A DNA stretch of 64,000 nucleotides from Pseudomonadota bacterium (GCA_022572185.1 JACZWL010000001.1:28387-92386); one strand, 5' to 3'; positions 19,548 through 58,455 are shown, counted from the stretch's first letter. The notes: generated from the letters alone by a model not told the origin. Made by a program: numbers and translations.

Positions 19548-19785
19548 TCACTAGTGCTTTCAGTTGCAGATACAGGCTTCGCCAAAAGGCGGAAGGATAA
19601 CTCAAGGACGATCGGAAATCGCCCGTCATAAGCGGGCCAATCGCCCGTCATCCGGCTGAGTGATTAGCTCAATGCCTGTGATCACGTCGCAGCTGCCAGG
19701 CCAGGATATCCCATTCGCTCGGACAGTAGAACTCGCTCGGTGGGACACACCGGCTTGGCAGCTGCGACTCTCGAAAAAGTAAACA

Positions 19786-53726: not shown

Positions 53727-53831
53727 GAATAACGGTTCGGGCATTCTCACCACGCCATGACCAGCCTTTCTACGGATATGGCCCGGCGCGCTATGCGACT
53801 GCCAAGGGAGTCATGCAGCGGTAAATTCTCT
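53727..53831 (-). repeat. attC-like site G (degenerate)
   Basis: GAATAACGGTTCGGGC ... CATGCAGCGGTAAATTC. The arms resemble the other copies, but the R boxes are mutated. Confidence 0.35.
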
Positions 53832-53842
53832 GCCGCCGTCTC

Positions 53843-54106
53843 TTAGACGTCGCGTTCGGATAGCCGGGACTTGATTTCGCGGTGAGATAACCCGCTGATT
53901 TTAATTACCTTTCTGGGAGAGGAAGCTCCCACGGACACGGTGACGTCTTGCTTCGGGATGCGCAATGTCTCCGCTAGCAAAGAGACAACCGCGTCGTTGG
54001 CTTTTCCTTTTTCTGGATTTGCCGTTACACGAATTTTCAAAGATTCGCCCAACCACCCGGCTATATGATTTCTGGAAGAACCAGGTACTACCTTGATCTT
54101 TAGCAA
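53843..54106 (-). CDS. DUF167 (YggU-like) protein, cassette-borne
   Basis: 87 aa with a DUF167-like sequence (KVVPGSSRN...GKANDAVVSLLAE). TTG start. Confidence 0.6.
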   Translation of the reverse strand: MLKIKVVPGSSRNHIAGWLGESLKIRVTANPEKGKANDAVVSLLAETLRIPKQDVTVSVGASSPRKVIKISGLSHREIKSRLSERDV

Positions 54107-54134
54107 CGAGATGACGCTGACCCCGGAGATAGGC

Positions 54135-54231
54135 GTCTAACGGTCTCGCTTATGAGCGCCAGTGTCTGGTGAGATGGTTGGAAAAGCAAGCTACGTGACA
54201 TACATGCAGCCAGCGCAGCAATTTGCCATGC
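54135..54231 (-). repeat. attC-like site A
   Basis: GTCTAACGGTCTCGC ... GCCAGCGCAGCAATTTGCCATGC. The left box fits RYYYAAC; the right box is degenerate. Confidence 0.5.
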
Positions 54232-54239
54232 CCACGGTA

Positions 54240-54707
54240 TCATCGGTCGATGATTTCAAAATGCGGATTAAAAATTAGTCCGATCAGATTGCCATAAGGA
54301 TCCAGTACACTTGCAACCTTGATATCACCACCAACATTTTCGACTGGTTTATGTGGCTTCGCACCAATTTTCAGCAATCGGTCCAGCTCCTCGTCTATGT
54401 CGTCGACGCCCCAATAAACCCTGACCCCTGACCCTACCGGCCGGGCCACAGTTCCCTTCGGGTTGAGAGCTAGCTCATAACCACCTACGTTGAAACCGAC
54501 ATAGTATGGTTCATCGACATACGGCTTTACCCCCAGCGCCTCGGTATACCAGTCTTTGGCACGCTCTAGGTCCGGCACTCCGTAAACAACAGTTCTAAGT
54601 CCTTGCAGTCTCGACTCTCCAGTTTGTTCGCCGGAATGAGAGCAAGCGATCATAGCGGTCAAACTGATCGCAAAAACTGCCCCCATACTTGCCAACCTAT
54701 TGTCCAT
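54240..54707 (-). CDS. VOC-family lipoprotein, cassette-borne
   Basis: 155 aa. Signal peptide with a lipobox (MIAC), then a VOC domain. GAGGAG SD (Shine-Dalgarno) sequence upstream. Confidence 0.7.
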   Translation of the reverse strand: MDNRLASMGAVFAISLTAMIACSHSGEQTGESRLQGLRTVVYGVPDLERAKDWYTEALGVKPYVDEPYYVGFNVGGYELALNPKGTVARPVGSGVRVYWGVDDIDEELDRLLKIGAKPHKPVENVGGDIKVASVLDPYGNLIGLIFNPHFEIIDR

Positions 54708-54724
54708 GAAACTCTCCTCTCGCT

Positions 54725-54828
54725 GCCTAACGGTTCAGCGATTAACAATGCAGCGTTTGACGCGTCTATTGCCATCCTTGCAAGAGACATGACAGCCGCC
54801 AATTGGCCAGTGCAGCGGTTTGTTAGGT
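54725..54828 (-). repeat. attC-like site B
   Basis: GCCTAAC ... GTGCAGCGGTTTGTTAGGT. The ends fit RYYYAAC / GTTRRRY. Confidence 0.65.
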
Positions 54829-54835
54829 GACTCAT

Positions 54836-55171
54836 TCATTCCTTGTTCGGATCGTCCATATAATCTTCTAAACCAAACGGATACACGCAACGACCCTTGC
54901 GACAACCCGCACCTCCTGCGAAGAGGTTCGGATCTGAACAGACAGCACGTTCTCCTTCGCGCGTCACTTCCTGCCGCGACCAATCCTGGTATACAAGCGT
55001 GTACTTTGAGTTGACAGCGACGGTCTTGCAGAAAGCATCATAGACCACGACACACTCGAATCGAGCCTCACAGGTGAACCAGGACTCTGAAAATTCAATA
55101 TCCGTCTCGTAAGGAGGTGGCTGTGAACAGCCAACTGCCAAGAAGACGCACAGTTTCGCGACAAATCGCAT
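54836..55171 (-). CDS. Cys-rich lipoprotein, unknown family, cassette-borne
   Basis: 111 aa from the ATG at 55171 (MRFVAKLCVFLAVGC lipobox), with a GAGG SD 4 nt upstream. The 204-aa track ORF runs through attC C into the next cassette. Confidence 0.55.
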   Translation of the reverse strand: MRFVAKLCVFLAVGCSQPPPYETDIEFSESWFTCEARFECVVVYDAFCKTVAVNSKYTLVYQDWSRQEVTREGERAVCSDPNLFAGGAGCRKGRCVYPFGLEDYMDDPNKE

Positions 55172-55184
55172 AGCCTCAGGACTC

Positions 55185-55286
55185 ACCTGACGATTTAGCT
55201 CACGGGCAACTAAGCGTAAGGCACGCTTGTTGCCACTGCAAGAAGCGTGACTGAAGCCAGTTGGCAGGTGCAGCGATTTGTCAGGC
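55185..55286 (-). repeat. attC-like site C
   Basis: ACCTGACGATTTAGCTCAC ... GTGCAGCGATTTGTCAGGC. The stop codon of the GFA gene lies in the right box. Confidence 0.65.
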
Positions 55287-55778
55287 GTCCTGATCCTCCA
55301 AACCGAGACGTTTGTGCCATTCCGCGATGGATTCGTCCGGATAGCCATCAAATATCGTATCGTTTCCCCCTTGTCGAAGCTCAACCCACGAAGCCTTCGA
55401 GCCGACCATGAGATGGGTGTGCTCAGGAGGCACAGGCAAATCCGTATCAATGGCTGAAGCGAAAGGATGAATTAGCTCTGGCCATCGCGGATCCCAAGCC
55501 CATAGTGCGCTGCCACAAATTCGGCAAAAATGCCGCCGCGCCGGGCTTTCCCTCGTCGTCTCAAATTTCTGGTCTCGTACCTTGGCTCGGTACACCGTAA
55601 TGTTCTCTTTGCCTTGAACCTGTAGCGTCGAATTTTCCGCCCCCAAGTTGATTGCATAACCACCGCCACCAGCTGTCTTCCGGCAGATGGAGCAATAGCA
55701 AAAGTTGAATGGGTATGGATGCGCTGAATGAAGGGTAAAACGCACTCCGCCACAATGACACGATCCCTCAAGGTTCAT
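55281..55778 (-). CDS. GFA-family (glutathione-dependent formaldehyde-activating-like) protein, cassette-borne
   Basis: 165 aa with CHCGGVRF and CxCxxCRK zinc-site motifs. Confidence 0.8.
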   Translation of the reverse strand: MNLEGSCHCGGVRFTLHSAHPYPFNFCYCSICRKTAGGGGYAINLGAENSTLQVQGKENITVYRAKVRDQKFETTRESPARRHFCRICGSALWAWDPRWPELIHPFASAIDTDLPVPPEHTHLMVGSKASWVELRQGGNDTIFDGYPDESIAEWHKRLGLEDQDA

Positions 55779-55800
55779 CTTCGTTCTCAGCCCCAGGGAC

Positions 55801-55920
55801 GCCTAACGGTTTAGCTCACTGGCGCCACGTAACTGGCGCACTTCGTGAGGAACCGCGATCATAACAGTGCACGAAGTGTGACGGGAACCGGCCGGCGGCC
55901 AGTGCAGCGATTTGTTGGGC
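55801..55920 (-). repeat. attC-like site D
   Basis: GCCTAACGGTTTAGCTCACTGGCGCC ... GGCGGCCAGTGCAGCGATTTGTTGGGC. Best match to RYYYAAC / GTTRRRY, with two extra bases on the ORF-proximal arm. Confidence 0.7.
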
Positions 55921-55923
55921 GAC

Positions 55924-56223
55924 TCATGCCGCACTTTTTTGGAAATCGAGCTCAATCTTGAGGCGTCCACCAAGAGCTTGAACCGCACTTTGCAATGTTT
56001 GCAAAGTCACTGATGAGTTATCGGGATCCAGAAGTCTATCCAAGGCAGAGCGGCTCGTTTCCATCCGTCGAGCCATTTCGGCTTTGCTTAGATTCGTTTC
56101 TGACATTTTCTCAGCAAGCTGAAATGCAATAAAACGCTTTACAGCTACAGCCGTCGCCTCTTCAAGAAGACCTTCCTCTACAAGAAACTCGTCAAAGTCA
56201 CTACCAATATTTCTCTTAGCCAT
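55924..56223 (-). CDS. XRE-type HTH antitoxin
   Basis: 99 aa with an HTH segment (LSKAEMARRMETSRSALDRLL). Immediately follows the toxin gene. Confidence 0.75.
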   Translation of the reverse strand: MAKRNIGSDFDEFLVEEGLLEEATAVAVKRFIAFQLAEKMSETNLSKAEMARRMETSRSALDRLLDPDNSSVTLQTLQSAVQALGGRLKIELDFQKSAA

Positions 56224-56225
56224 AA

Positions 56226-56570
56226 TTACAATCTCAACTTCGTCAATCTTCGTTTCGCAGTCGCCAATTCATTTGATGGGGTTTTCTGAGATTTCTTAAT
56301 AAATCCGTGCAACAGAACGATCTTCCTTTTGAATATAGTAAAGAAAGTCCGAGCAATCCCAGACGACACATGAGAACGTATCTCCCAAAGACCGTCATCT
56401 ACCTTCCTGGCAAGCGGCATTCCCACCGGCCAACCAAACTGCAACGTCATAATGTCCTCGCCAACGGATTTGCGATTCGTCCGATTCATGTCTTTCAGCC
56501 ATTCCCTCACAGGCTCACGCCCAGAATCCAGTCGAAAGAAAACTACGGGAATCGGCCTATCCACTGGCAT
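56226..56570 (-). CDS. RelE/HigB-superfamily toxin (Gp49-like)
   Basis: 114 aa with the VREWLKDM...GLWEIR...RTFFTIFKRKIVLLHGFIKKSQKTP pattern of Gp49/HigB-like toxins. Confidence 0.75.
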   Translation of the reverse strand: MPVDRPIPVVFFRLDSGREPVREWLKDMNRTNRKSVGEDIMTLQFGWPVGMPLARKVDDGLWEIRSHVSSGIARTFFTIFKRKIVLLHGFIKKSQKTPSNELATAKRRLTKLRL

Positions 56571-56578
56571 CAGGTTAG

Positions 56579-56596
56579 TGTACCATTATTGGTACA
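56579..56596. promoter_or_regulatory. Inverted repeat TGTACC-ATTATT-GGTACA upstream of the toxin gene (likely TA operator)
   Basis: Perfect 6-bp arms, 9 nt upstream of the toxin ATG. Confidence 0.45.
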
Positions 56597-56629
56597 TATG
56601 TCAATGTCTAGGAAACGGCTTGGAGAGTC

Positions 56630-56732
56630 GTCTAACGATTTAGCTCACCGGCGCCCAGTATCTGGCGCGTGGGTTGCCACTGCAAGCCGCATGACAGATA
56701 CGTCCGGCGGCCAGCGCAGCGATTTGTCAGGC
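56630..56732 (-). repeat. attC-like site E
   Basis: GTCTAACGATTTAGCTCACCGGCGCC ... GGCGGCCAGCGCAGCGATTTGTCAGGC. The higA stop codon lies inside the right box. Confidence 0.7.
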
Positions 56733-57020
56733 AGCGCATAGTTTTTTTACGCGAAGCTTCTTTTTCGCTCTTTTTGCAGTCCAGAGATCATACTGAGTCT
56801 GCTGATTGAGCCAGCTCTCCGGTGTAGTATCGAAGGCCATAGAAAGACGTAAAGCCATTTCCGGGCTAATTCCAGCGTGACCATTCAGAATTGCCGATAA
56901 AGTCTTCCTGCTAACTCCGAGACCTTCGGCAGCCTCAGTAACACTCAATTCCAGCGGCTCAAGACAGAGCTCCCGAATAATCTCACCGGGATGAGGGGGA
57001 TTGTGCATTTGCATAGTCAT
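56727..57020 (-). CDS. higA: HigA-family antitoxin
   Basis: 97 aa. HPGEIIRE...[14 protein letters not shown]...SPEMALRL is classical for HigA/VapI. Confidence 0.8.
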
Positions 57021-57022
57021 GA

Positions 57023-57301
57023 TTAGTGGTAATCCTCGTAATTCACTTCAATCGCATCAGGCCCAGCAAATCTGAACGTTACTCGCCAGTTTCCGCTAAC
57101 GCGCACGGATCAAACACCGTGACTCGTCCCTTTGAGTTGGTGAAGGTACAAACCGGGAAGGCCCATGTCCTTCGGCGAAACAGATGCATGAAGCCTAAAT
57201 AATATGAGCCTCAGTTTCGACGAGTGTACCGCCTGGATTCCAGCCTTCGTACCACGCAGAAAGAAGCGTTCCAGTCCCTTGTGTTTGAAGTTTCGAATCA
57301 C
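57023..57301 (-). pseudogene. higB: HigB toxin gene with an in-frame TGA at the conserved Trp codon
   Basis: GTG start. 63 codons (MIRNFKHKGLERFF...LKGTSHGV), then TGA at 57110-57112, then 28 in-frame codons (SVRVSGNWRVTFRF...NYEDYH*). The total of 92 codons is the normal HigB length. Confidence 0.7.
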
Positions 57302-57310
57302 AACGATAAA

Positions 57311-57331
57311 GTGTAACGTGTTACGTTACAC
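57311..57331. promoter_or_regulatory. Inverted repeat GTGTAACG-TGTTA-CGTTACAC upstream of higB (likely HigA operator)
   Basis: Perfect 8-bp arms, 10 nt upstream of the higB start. Confidence 0.45.
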
Positions 57332-57350
57332 GTGTTAAGTTCGAAGCGCC

Positions 57351-57431
57351 ACCTAGCGGTTTAGCTCACTGGCAACTGAGCGTATGGCGCGCTTGTTGCC
57401 AATGCAAGAAGCGTGACTGAAGCCAGGTGGC
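57351..57431 (-). repeat. attC-like site F (truncated; R''/L'' arm missing)
   Basis: ACCTAGCGGTTTAGCTCACTGGCAAC... is close to site C through ...GACTGAAGCCAGGTGGC. It then diverges 14 nt before the trpS stop. Confidence 0.5.
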
Positions 57432-57444
57432 GAGTCATGGGTCT

Positions 57445-58455
57445 CTAACCGAGCTTTCTGATGCCAACCGCATATCTGATCTCGTCCAGATACGGCACGG
57501 AGATCTCACGCGCTTTCTCGGCGCCTTTTAACAATTTCTTTTCGACGATAGCGGGGTCGTCGACCAAGCGCTGGTACTCGTCCCGGGCCGGCTTGATGTG
57601 CTCATTGATGTATTCGAAAAGGACCTGCTTCATCTCGCCCCAGGCAATGCCTTCGGCGTATCTCTTCTCGATGTTCTTGACTTCTTCTTCAGTGGCGAAT
57701 GCTTTGTACATGTCATAGAGCGTCGAGCCTGCGGTGTCTTTGGGTTCACCCGGCTCGAGGCTGTTGGTCTTGATCTTCATGATGAGCTTGCGTAGCGACT
57801 TCTCGTCAGCGAAAAGCGGAATGATGTTGTTGTAGCTCTTGCTCATTTTACGGCCATCGAGGCCGGCCAGCACCGCGGTGCTGTCGCTGATGGCGGCTTC
57901 CGGGATGGTGAAAATATCACCGTAACGGTGGTTGAAGCGTTGCGCGATGTCGCGCGTCATTTCCACGTGTTGTTTCTGGTCACGGCCAACCGGTACCTTC
58001 GTACTCTTGAACATCAGGATGTCGGCTGCCATCAGAATTGGGTAGCAGTAAAGCGCCATCATGATGCCCTTGTCCGGATCCCTGTTGCCGCTTTCCTCGT
58101 TGGCCTGCACGACTGCTTTGTACGAGTGCGCGCGGTTCATGAGACCTTTGGCTGTCACGCTGCTCAGAATCCAGGTCAGGTGCGGAATCTCTTCGATGTC
58201 GGATTGCCGGTAGAAAACTGCATTTTCTGTATCCAGGCCGAGCGCCAGCCAGGCCGCAGCAATCTCGAGTGTGGAACGATTGATGCGTTCGGGGTCTTCG
58301 GCCTTGGCGAGTGCATGATAGTCAGCCAGAAAGTAAAAATTCTTTTTTGACTTGTCCTTGCTCGCAGCGATGCCTGGGCGGATTGCTCCGACATAGTTGC
58401 CGATGTGCGGTGTGCCGGTCGTAGTAATGCCGGTGAGATAGATGTCCTGGCTCAT
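57445..58455 (-). CDS. trpS: Tryptophan--tRNA ligase
   Basis: 336 aa with the HIGH-type motif TPHIGNYVG and a KMSKS motif. Confidence 0.95.
   Translation of the reverse strand: MSQDIYLTGITTTGTPHIGNYVGAIRPGIAASKDKSKKNFYFLADYHALAKAEDPERINRSTLEIAAAWLALGLDTENAVFYRQSDIEEIPHLTWILSSVTAKGLMNRAHSYKAVVQANEESGNRDPDKGIMMALYCYPILMAADILMFKSTKVPVGRDQKQHVEMTRDIAQRFNHRYGDIFTIPEAAISDSTAVLAGLDGRKMSKSYNNIIPLFADEKSLRKLIMKIKTNSLEPGEPKDTAGSTLYDMYKAFATEEEVKNIEKRYAEGIAWGEMKQVLFEYINEHIKPARDEYQRLVDDPAIVEKKLLKGAEKAREISVPYLDEIRYAVGIRKLG

What the first reader, a model, noticed from the sequence alone, without database searches (positions are those of the whole stretch)
53727..57431. Integrase-less integron cassette array (CALIN-like): six cassettes and seven attC-like sites
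**Seen in sequence.**
- A 97-120-bp imperfect palindrome recurs after every small minus-strand ORF between 53.7 and 57.4 kb.
- On the plus strand its left ends read GCCTAAC, GTCTAAC or ACCTGAC.
- Its right ends read GTTAGGT, GTTGGGC or GTCAGGC.
- The arms are conserved (TAACGGTTTAGCTCAC ... GTGCAGCGATTTGTYRGGC) and the centres vary.
- In sites D and E the ORF-proximal arm carries two extra unpaired bases relative to the other arm.
- ORF stop codons lie inside the right box (GFA gene, higA) or within 10 nt of it.
- The next ORF starts 13-28 nt after the site, which leaves no room for a promoter. The two toxin-antitoxin (TA) cassettes are exceptions, with 49-59-nt spacers that contain palindromes.

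**Established knowledge.**
- attC sites end in RYYYAAC and GTTRRRY boxes.
- They have an unpaired central spacer, extrahelical bases on the '' arm of the bottom strand, and a variable centre.
- Chromosomal arrays are rich in TA, VOC and GNAT cassettes.

**Inference.** This is a sedentary cassette array. No ORF in the 64 kb looks like a tyrosine recombinase, so it is either a CALIN or is separated from its intI.
Basis: partly seen in the sequence, partly recalled or inferred. Interest (0 to 1): 0.75.

Follow-up and report, generated by a model that had tools for sequence, protein, structure and literature searches.

The report
Integron cassette array that lost integrase
This is a real integron gene-cassette array in an uncultured marine-sediment bacterium (family Woeseiaceae) that has lost its integrase gene; related bacteria still carry that gene at the same spot next to trpS, so this is a clear example of a known kind of element.

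Summary
Window 53.7-57.4 kb carries six small minus-strand cassettes separated by 97-120-nt imperfect palindromes found nowhere else in the 64 kb.

- **attC identity.** I built a covariance model only from attC sites of related metagenomic arrays that sit beside a bona fide integron integrase. It hits six of the seven sites: F, E and D strongly, C moderately, and B and the damaged G weakly. Site A is a relic the model does not detect.
- **Architecture.** The plus strand is the recombinogenic bottom strand. It shows a 7-bp R box, a 5/6-nt unpaired spacer, and an L box with bulged bases on the ORF-proximal arm.
- **No recombinase.** The window contains no tyrosine recombinase or recognisable fragment of one.
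- **Origin.** Four related Woeseiaceae lineages carry intI-attI directly downstream of the trpS orthologue, where the window has only the damaged site G. The array is therefore a CALIN left after integrase loss. Other lineages lost intI too, probably independently.
- **Within-species variation.** Array variants differ by whole cassettes, but their breakpoints lie in shared attC stretches rather than at G|TT. This indicates homologous deletion, not integrase activity.

It is a known kind of element and of moderate interest.

The parts
57351..57431 (-). attC site G. It has an intact centre, L' and R' (GCTAGGT), but its R''/L'' arm is damaged or deleted. It begins about 13 nt after the trpS stop codon.
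   Evidence: - 89% identical to site D over 82 nt.
- Covariance-model hit of 32.7 bits, E 8e-8, when forced to full length.
- The same damaged site is present in every strain of this species.
56636..57356 (-). Cassette 1, a higB/higA toxin-antitoxin pair. higB spans 57024-57301 and carries an in-frame TGA at 57110-57112. higA spans 56727-57020.
   Evidence: - Pfam HigB-like_toxin and HTH_3.
- The TGG>TGA change is seen in several independent assemblies, and the codon is intact in others.
- A promoter-like site lies at 57338-57310.
56630..56732 (-). attC site F
   Evidence: Covariance model 94.3 bits, E 5e-28.
55807..56635 (-). Cassette 2, a Gp49-family toxin (56226-56570) with an HTH_37 antitoxin (55924-56223).
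   Evidence: - Pfam assignments.
- Promoter-like TTGACA-16-TACACT at 56604-56577.
- The cassette is absent from strain variants L002 and L004.
- It is present at 74-81% identity in other arrays.
55801..55920 (-). attC site E
   Evidence: - Covariance model 88.0 bits, E 6e-26.
- The + strand DNA fold shows the R box, the unpaired spacer, and an L box with two bulges on the 3' arm.
55191..55806 (-). Cassette 3, a GFA-family protein (55281-55778). Its stop codon lies inside R''.
   Evidence: Pfam GFA. No promoter-like site.
55185..55286 (-). attC site D. Its R boxes read ACCTGAC and GTCAGGC, an AAC>GAC change that is compensated on the opposite arm.
   Evidence: - Covariance model 69.7 bits, E 6e-20.
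- The + strand folds at -29.2 kcal/mol (z -4.9) against -21.7 for the - strand.
54731..55190 (-). Cassette 4, a 111-aa predicted lipoprotein (54836-55171) with no Pfam family.
54725..54828 (-). attC site C
   Evidence: Covariance model 47.0 bits, E 1.5e-12.
54141..54730 (-). Cassette 5, a glyoxalase/VOC-family protein (54240-54707).
   Evidence: Pfam Glyoxalase.
54135..54231 (-). attC site B. It is decayed: R'' reads GCATGGC while R' reads GTTAGAC.
   Evidence: Covariance model 25.6 bits, E 1.6e-5.
53733..54140 (-). Cassette 6, a DUF167/YggU-family protein (53843-54106), at the fossil distal end of the array.
   Evidence: - Pfam DUF167.
- An orthologue in Woeseia MAG L007 lies at the same end of the array and is not followed by a recognisable attC.
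53727..53840 (-). Relic A. It keeps only GCTGCA and AACCGTTAT fragments of an attC.
   Evidence: Not found by the covariance model at E<=10. Its fold is no better than shuffled sequence.
57445..58455 (-). trpS, the conserved flank. It is transcribed towards the array. In relatives it is followed by a small ORF and then intI-attI.

Best explanation
**What it is.** This is the cassette array of a sedentary chromosomal integron that Woeseiaceae carry immediately downstream of trpS. In this species the integrase-attI module has been deleted, leaving a CALIN.

**Anatomy.**
- The top strand is the window's minus strand.
- Each cassette is a promoterless ORF followed by its attC. The two toxin-antitoxin cassettes are the exception and carry their own promoters.
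- The plus strand of each attC can fold into the recombinogenic hairpin: R box, unpaired spacer, L box with extrahelical bases, and a long variable stem.
- An integron integrase would cut that hairpin at RYYYAA|C.

**Present state.**
- With no integrase at the locus, the array appears to change only by homologous recombination or slippage between its similar attC repeats, which removes blocks of cassettes.
- Distal sites (C, B, A) and the trpS-proximal site G are decaying.
- One toxin gene carries a nonsense mutation.

**Shown:** attC identity, orientation, absence of intI in the window, presence of intI at the orthologous locus in relatives, and the positions of the strain breakpoints.

**Inferred:**
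- Loss of intI, rather than intI never having been present.
- Present immobility.
- Expression of the promoterless cassettes by read-through from trpS.
For: **Repeats and the attC model**
- The repeats are confined to 53.7-57.4 kb and far exceed chance.
- Model R1 was built from 14 attC sites of integrase-linked arrays only. It hits F, E, D, C, G and B on the minus strand. Nothing else in the 64 kb scores better than E 0.04.
- R1 finds 339 matches in 85 related sources.

**Structure across 150 sites**
- 93.7% of cells are paired, against 29-37% when the partners are slid.
- 322 cells show compensatory changes.

**Integrase linkage in relatives**
- L044, L054 and L032 carry IntI homologues divergent from arrays of this attC family.
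- The L044 and L087 proteins pass TIGR02249.
- Relatives of these proteins are named as Woeseiaceae or Woeseia integron integrases.
- intI lies directly after the trpS orthologue in L087/88, L044, L101/102 and L103-105.

**Absence in this species and in the window**
- Ten contigs with 100% identical TrpS all lack intI and begin with the damaged site G.
- The window contains no tyrosine recombinase by tblastn. A search of the six-frame translation with an IntI profile gave a best E of 2.2.

**Variation and expression**
- Strain variants differ by whole cassettes, with breakpoints inside shared attC stretches.
- The only promoter-like sites lie upstream of the two TA cassettes.
Against: **Gaps in the evidence**
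- The rest of this genome could not be examined, so an integrase acting in trans is not excluded.
- IntegronFinder's general attC model could not be run. My model is specific to this attC family.
- No intI pseudogene fragment marks the deletion. 'Loss' therefore rests on comparison with lineages whose TrpS is only 83-85% identical.

**Departures from the canonical attC**
- The extrahelical bases on the bottom strand are C16 and G24, separated by a 7-bp stem. The canonical pattern is G16 and T23/24 with a 6-bp stem.
- Sites D and G lack the conserved AAC triplet.
Confidence: 0.85

Rival explanations
1. The array is still a working part of an integron. An integrase encoded elsewhere in the same genome (a split integron or a second integron) excises and reshuffles these cassettes in trans.
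For: - Sites F, E and D score as high as sites in integrase-linked arrays.
- At least one Woeseiaceae-type intI lies at a non-trpS locus, in L089.
- About half of CALINs lie in replicons that encode IntI (PMC4889954).
Against: - All four within-species junctions examined lie in shared attC stretches, not at G|TT.
- All variants can be derived from one larger array by deletion alone.
- Sites C, B, A and G are decaying.
- No intI lies within 64 kb.
Confidence: 0.25
2. The array never had its own integrase here. Cassettes were inserted at a secondary (non-att) genomic site downstream of trpS by an integrase acting from elsewhere.
For: This is a known route to CALINs (PMC4889954; title, 10.1101/2022.09.11.507474).
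Against: - Four lineages have intI-attI at exactly this locus.
- The array starts with about 80 nt of a damaged attC rather than a bare G|TT junction.
- Other integrase-less lineages show different deletion scars at the same place.
Confidence: 0.05
3. The palindromes are REP/BIME-like intergenic repeats or transcription terminators unrelated to integrons.
For: They are intergenic imperfect palindromes lying after ORFs.
Against: - None occur outside the array in the 64 kb.
- In related loci they always form co-oriented arrays, some of them beside intI.
- The R box / unpaired spacer / bulged L box geometry is conserved, with covariation.
- No T-tract terminators coincide with the sites.
Confidence: 0.02

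Closest known systems
[quoted passage not shown] 2016, PMC4889954)
   Same: - At least two attC sites with no nearby intI.
- Small array of non-resistance cassettes.
- No neighbouring intI pseudogene, as in 95% of CALINs.
   Different: The origin can be traced here, because orthologous loci in sister lineages keep intI-attI next to trpS. For most CALINs the origin is unknown.
Sedentary chromosomal integrons such as the Vibrio cholerae superintegron
   Same: - attC sites are highly similar within the element and have long variable stems (PMC5027507).
- The TA cassettes carry their own promoters.
- By GC skew, the bottom strands appear to lie on the leading-strand template, as in 25 of 30 SCIs (PMC5371416).
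   Different: - The window has no integrase, attI or Pc promoter.
- There are only six cassettes.
- The attC extrahelical bases differ from the canonical ones.
Xanthomonas chromosomal integrons at a fixed housekeeping locus (ilvD) with frequently inactivated intI. This description is from my own knowledge. A 2025 preprint on Xanthomonas integrons appears but was not read in full.
   Same: - An integron fixed beside a housekeeping gene across a clade.
- Array content differs between lineages.
- The integrase has been lost repeatedly.
   Different: - A different clade (Woeseiaceae) and a different anchor gene (trpS).
- Here intI is cleanly deleted rather than left as a pseudogene.

Membership tests
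Integron attC recombination site (definition in PMC5027507) | R box: the bottom strand carries 5'-RYYYAAC-3' (R') paired with GTTRRRY (R'') | tested here: met
   - On the + strand, C reads GCCTAAC/GTTAGGT, E reads GCCTAAC/GTTGGGC and F reads GTCTAAC/GTCAGGC.
- D reads ACCTGAC/GTCAGGC, a compensated variant.
- B and G are degenerate.
- Across 150 family sites the inner five R-box pairs are 93-100% paired.
Integron attC recombination site (definition in PMC5027507) | Conserved AAC triplet at the crossover point in R' of the bottom strand | tested here: inconclusive
   - AAC is present in B, C, E and F.
- D has GAC and G has AGC.
- It is near-invariant across the family: the C in 150/150 sites and each A in 143-148/150.
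Integron attC recombination site (definition in PMC5027507) | Unpaired central spacer of 5-6 nt on each arm between the R and L boxes | tested here: met
   - The spacer is GATTTA or GGTTTA (6 nt) on the 5' arm and GATTT (5 nt) on the 3' arm of the + strand.
- RNAalifold leaves it unpaired.
- In L087 its sequence changes on both arms without becoming complementary.
Integron attC recombination site (definition in PMC5027507) | Extrahelical bases on the '' arm of the bottom strand: usually G at position 16 and T at 23/24, separated by a 6-bp stem | tested here: inconclusive
   - The arm and the positions (16 and 24) fit.
- The bases do not: C16 is invariant in 150/150 sites, and the second is G24.
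- The stem between them is 7 bp.
- The second bulge is a prediction without covariation support.
Integron attC recombination site (definition in PMC5027507) | Variable terminal structure; total length 57-141 bp | tested here: met
   The sites are 97-120 nt. The centre forms an imperfect hairpin with compensatory changes.
Integron attC recombination site (definition in PMC5027507) | Lies at the 3' end of co-oriented, mostly promoterless ORFs | tested here: met
   - All six cassettes are on the minus strand.
- Stop codons are 0-8 nt from R''.
- Promoter-like sites occur only in the two TA cassettes.
Integron attC recombination site (definition in PMC5027507) | The same site family is found next to an integron integrase | tested here: met
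   Arrays in L044, L054, L032, L087/88 and L103/104 (L104 is the same contig as L052) lie beside intI. The L044 and L087 IntI proteins pass TIGR02249.
Integron attC recombination site (definition in PMC5027507) | Detected by the general IntegronFinder/HattCI attC models | not testable with these tools
   Rfam gave no gathering-score match in the window, so the search was uninformative about attC. IntegronFinder's model was not available.
Integron attC recombination site (definition in PMC5027507) | The bottom strand is recombined by an integron integrase | not testable with these tools
   This needs an experiment.
CALIN (PMC4889954) | At least two attC sites with no integron integrase nearby | tested here: met
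   There are six model-supported sites. There is no tyrosine recombinase or fragment anywhere in the 64 kb.
Complete integron / sedentary chromosomal integron | intI, attI and a Pc promoter adjacent to the array | tested here: not met
   These are absent from the window. They are present at the orthologous trpS locus in L044, L087/88, L101/102 and L103-105.
REP/BIME-type dispersed palindromes | Copies scattered through ordinary intergenic regions | tested here: not met
   There are no copies outside the array in the 64 kb. The whole genome was not available.

The most novel reading that the evidence does not exclude
After integrase loss, the array has been domesticated as a trpS read-through transcription unit that now evolves only by homologous deletion between attC repeats. 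In addition, the Woeseiaceae IntI/attC pair uses non-canonical extrahelical bases (bottom-strand C16 and G24 with a 7-bp spacing), which would imply an integrase with a changed strand-selection pocket.
Probability: 0.2. Interest if true: 0.5.

Novelty: new member of a known kind. Interest (0 to 1): 0.38.

Why it matters
- **CALIN origin.** CALINs are common, but their origin is usually untraceable because most lack an intI pseudogene nearby (PMC4889954). Here a whole clade of abundant sediment bacteria shows both states at one locus, trpS-intI-array and trpS-array. Loss of the integrase has probably happened more than once, independently.
- **A natural series for studying decay.** The clade shows what happens to a cassette array once its integrase is gone: attC decay, deletions driven by repeat homology, and toxin inactivation in TA cassettes.
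- **Limits.** None of this changes the integron paradigm, and no resistance genes are involved.

Tried and rejected
- **Rfam.** A gathering-threshold scan of the whole window gave no hits, so it was uninformative about attC.
- **Failed Pfam calls.** Two Pfam calls failed because the higB coordinates contained stop codons. The scan was repeated without those coordinates.
- **Species-representative genomes.** The two-arm attC pattern found only two genomes, a Woeseia MAG and a Gammaproteobacteria MAG. The window's own genome is not among the representatives, so a genome-wide intI search was not possible.
- **Same-MAG intI.** I looked for an intI contig from the same MAGs (GCA_022545605.1, GCA_022567765.1) using four integrase look-ups. 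None came from those assemblies.
- **Integrase-type junctions.** I looked for G|TT junctions among strain variants. All four junctions are in shared attC stretches instead.
- **Counting losses.** TrpS identities between lineages are star-like at 83-87% and do not resolve whether intI was lost once or several times. The different deletion scars argue for several losses.
- **Literature.** A search for Woeseia plus integron found no paper that appeared, from titles and abstracts, to describe this element.
Full report
**1. The observation**

Between 53.7 and 57.4 kb, every small minus-strand ORF or ORF pair is followed by a 97-120-nt imperfect palindrome.
- The arm motifs TAACGGTTTAGCTCAC and GTGCAGCGATTTGTYRGGC each occur four times within 3 mismatches. 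All copies lie between 54.8 and 57.4 kb. Chance expectation is 0.13-0.18, and no shuffle reached four.
- Repeat families link the sites.

**2. Strand and architecture**

All ORFs are on the minus strand, so the minus strand is the integron 'top' strand and the plus strand is the 'bottom' strand. Site D on the plus strand reads:

5'-ACCTGAC GATTTA GCTCAC ... GTG[C]AGC GATTT GTCAGGC-3'

This gives the following layout, which matches the published attC description (PMC5027507):
- a 7-nt R' box;
- a 6-nt spacer;
- the L' box;
- a long centre;
- the L'' box with one bulged base;
- a 5-nt spacer;
- the R'' box.

As single-stranded DNA the plus strand folds at least as well as the minus strand:

| Site | + strand (kcal/mol) | - strand (kcal/mol) |
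|---|---|---|
| D | -29.2 (z -4.9) | -21.7 |
| E | -29.0 | -24.5 |

The fold of E shows two bulges on the ORF-proximal arm.

**3. Where the window comes from, and strain variation**

- The TrpS protein encoded beside the array is 100% identical on at least ten public contigs. Two are from NCBI MAGs; the others shown are metagenome assemblies.
- All ten have trpS followed directly by the same damaged site G and the higBA cassette. None has an integrase.
- Their arrays differ by whole cassettes:
  - The window type carries higBA, Gp49/HTH_37, GFA, the 111-aa lipoprotein, VOC and DUF167.
  - The L002 type lacks Gp49/HTH_37 and has three extra ORFs (DUF302, 242 aa, 55 aa).
  - The L004 type lacks four cassettes.
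- L046, a close relative, lacks higBA.
- Three-way alignments place every breakpoint inside a stretch shared by two attC sites, never at the canonical G|TT crossover. The stretches are CTGGCCGCCGGACG, TGGCAAC, CACTGGCC and GGCGCC.
- All variants can be derived from one larger array by deletion alone.
- This points to homologous recombination or slippage between repeats rather than integrase action.

**4. Link to integron integrases**

- An exact two-arm pattern found a Woeseia MAG and a Gammaproteobacteria MAG among species-representative genomes. It also found 78 metagenome contigs.
It found full-length IntI homologues in L044 (49% identical to IntI1), L054 and L032. Each is divergent from an array of this repeat family.
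- The L044 and L087 proteins pass NCBIfam TIGR02249 'integron integrase' with 451 and 456 bits against a cut-off of 265.
- Close relatives of these proteins are named integron integrase of Woeseiaceae or Woeseia by NCBI.

**5. An attC test that does not use the window**

- I aligned 14 attC sites taken only from integrase-linked arrays (L044, L087, L054, L032).
- RNAalifold, run without constraints, recovered the R box, the unpaired spacer, the bulged L box and a variable stem. Ten pairs showed compensatory changes.
- The covariance model built from this alignment, run with filters off, scored the window's minus strand as follows:

| Site | Bits |
|---|---|
| F | 94.3 |
| E | 88.0 |
| D | 69.7 |
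| C | 47.0 |
| G | 32.7 |
| B | 25.6 |
| A | not found |

- The best hit elsewhere in the 64 kb had E 0.04.
- Across 85 related sources the model finds 339 matches.
- On the best 150 sites, 93.7% of cells are paired against 29-37% for slid controls, with 322 compensatory cells.
- The first bulge is invariant (top-strand G, so bottom-strand C16). A second bulge (bottom-strand G24) follows a 7-bp stem.
- The canonical pattern is G16 and T23/24 with a 6-bp stem (PMC5027507), so this family is a variant in these details.

**6. Origin of the integrase-less state**

In four IntI lineages the integrase gene lies directly downstream of the trpS orthologue, in the same GGT-trpS neighbourhood as the window. 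It is convergent with trpS and divergent from the array.
- L087/L088.
- L044: its contig ends within the 3' part of trpS.
- L101/L102.
- L103-L105.

In the window, 13 nt separate the trpS stop codon from the damaged attC G.

Other integrase-less lineages show different scars at the same place:
- In L041, a small membrane-protein gene abuts an attC.
- In L064 and L078, a cupin gene follows trpS.
- In L008, a cupin fragment is fused to the tail of an antitoxin gene.

Loss of intI has therefore probably occurred more than once. The window contains no integrase remnant: a search of its six-frame translation with an IntI profile gave a best E of 2.2.

**7. Function**

- Cassette products: HigB (nonsense allele)/HigA, Gp49 toxin/HTH_37 antitoxin, GFA, an unassigned lipoprotein, a VOC/glyoxalase-family protein and DUF167.
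- The only two sigma-70-like promoter matches in 53.4-58.6 kb lie in the long spacers upstream of the two TA cassettes. The other cassettes would need read-through, plausibly from trpS, which points into the array. This is an inference.
- GC skew is negative on the plus strand across the whole window. That places the bottom strands on the leading-strand template, as in 25 of 30 sedentary chromosomal integrons (PMC5371416). This too is an inference.

**8. Verdict**

The element meets the CALIN definition (PMC4889954). It is best explained as the remnant of the Woeseiaceae trpS-linked chromosomal integron after integrase loss, now shrinking and decaying.

It is a new member of a known kind and resembles the Xanthomonas situation (from my own knowledge). 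Whether an integrase elsewhere in this genome still acts on it could not be determined.

Noticed in passing
window 57110-57112 (minus strand), within higB 57024-57301: The HigB toxin gene has a TGG>TGA nonsense change at a conserved Trp codon. The TGA allele appears in at least eight independent assemblies of this species and the intact TGG in others, so it is a real population polymorphism. The antitoxin gene is intact.
   Followed up: yes
window 57431-57450: The 5' flank of site G (CGCCACCT) is complementary to AGGTGGCG, which is the end of R' plus the first bases of the cassette. This gives the damaged site a new 8-bp closing stem. The stretch AGACCCATGACTCGCC could be a decayed R''/L'' arm or a remnant of the cupin start region seen after trpS in L008, L064 and L078.
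   Followed up: partly
window 53727-56732; also L002 and L052: attC model scores fall steadily from the trpS-proximal to the distal end: F 94, E 88, D 70, C 47, B 26, A undetected. L002 shows a similar though not strictly monotonic decline, and the integrase-linked array L052 drops only at its last two sites. This suggests the older distal cassettes are being fixed as their sites decay.
   Followed up: partly
L101 1540-2545: In one integrase-bearing lineage, a Gp49/HTH_37 toxin-antitoxin pair homologous to window cassette 2 lies inverted between trpS and intI, outside the cassette array.
   Followed up: no
L008 6130-6300: Downstream of trpS in this related MAG, the first 31 codons of a cupin gene are fused to the last codons of an HTH_37 antitoxin gene, followed by an attC. 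This is a deletion scar different from the one in the window.
   Followed up: partly
L089 / L090: A Woeseiaceae-type integron integrase (70% identical to the L044 IntI) lies at a non-trpS locus next to DAGK and EptA-like genes. Some members of the clade therefore carry an integron elsewhere in the chromosome.
   Followed up: no
window 19691-19763 (minus strand): This is the weakest above-noise hit of the attC model outside the array (15.2 bits, E 0.04). It is isolated and most likely chance.
   Followed up: no
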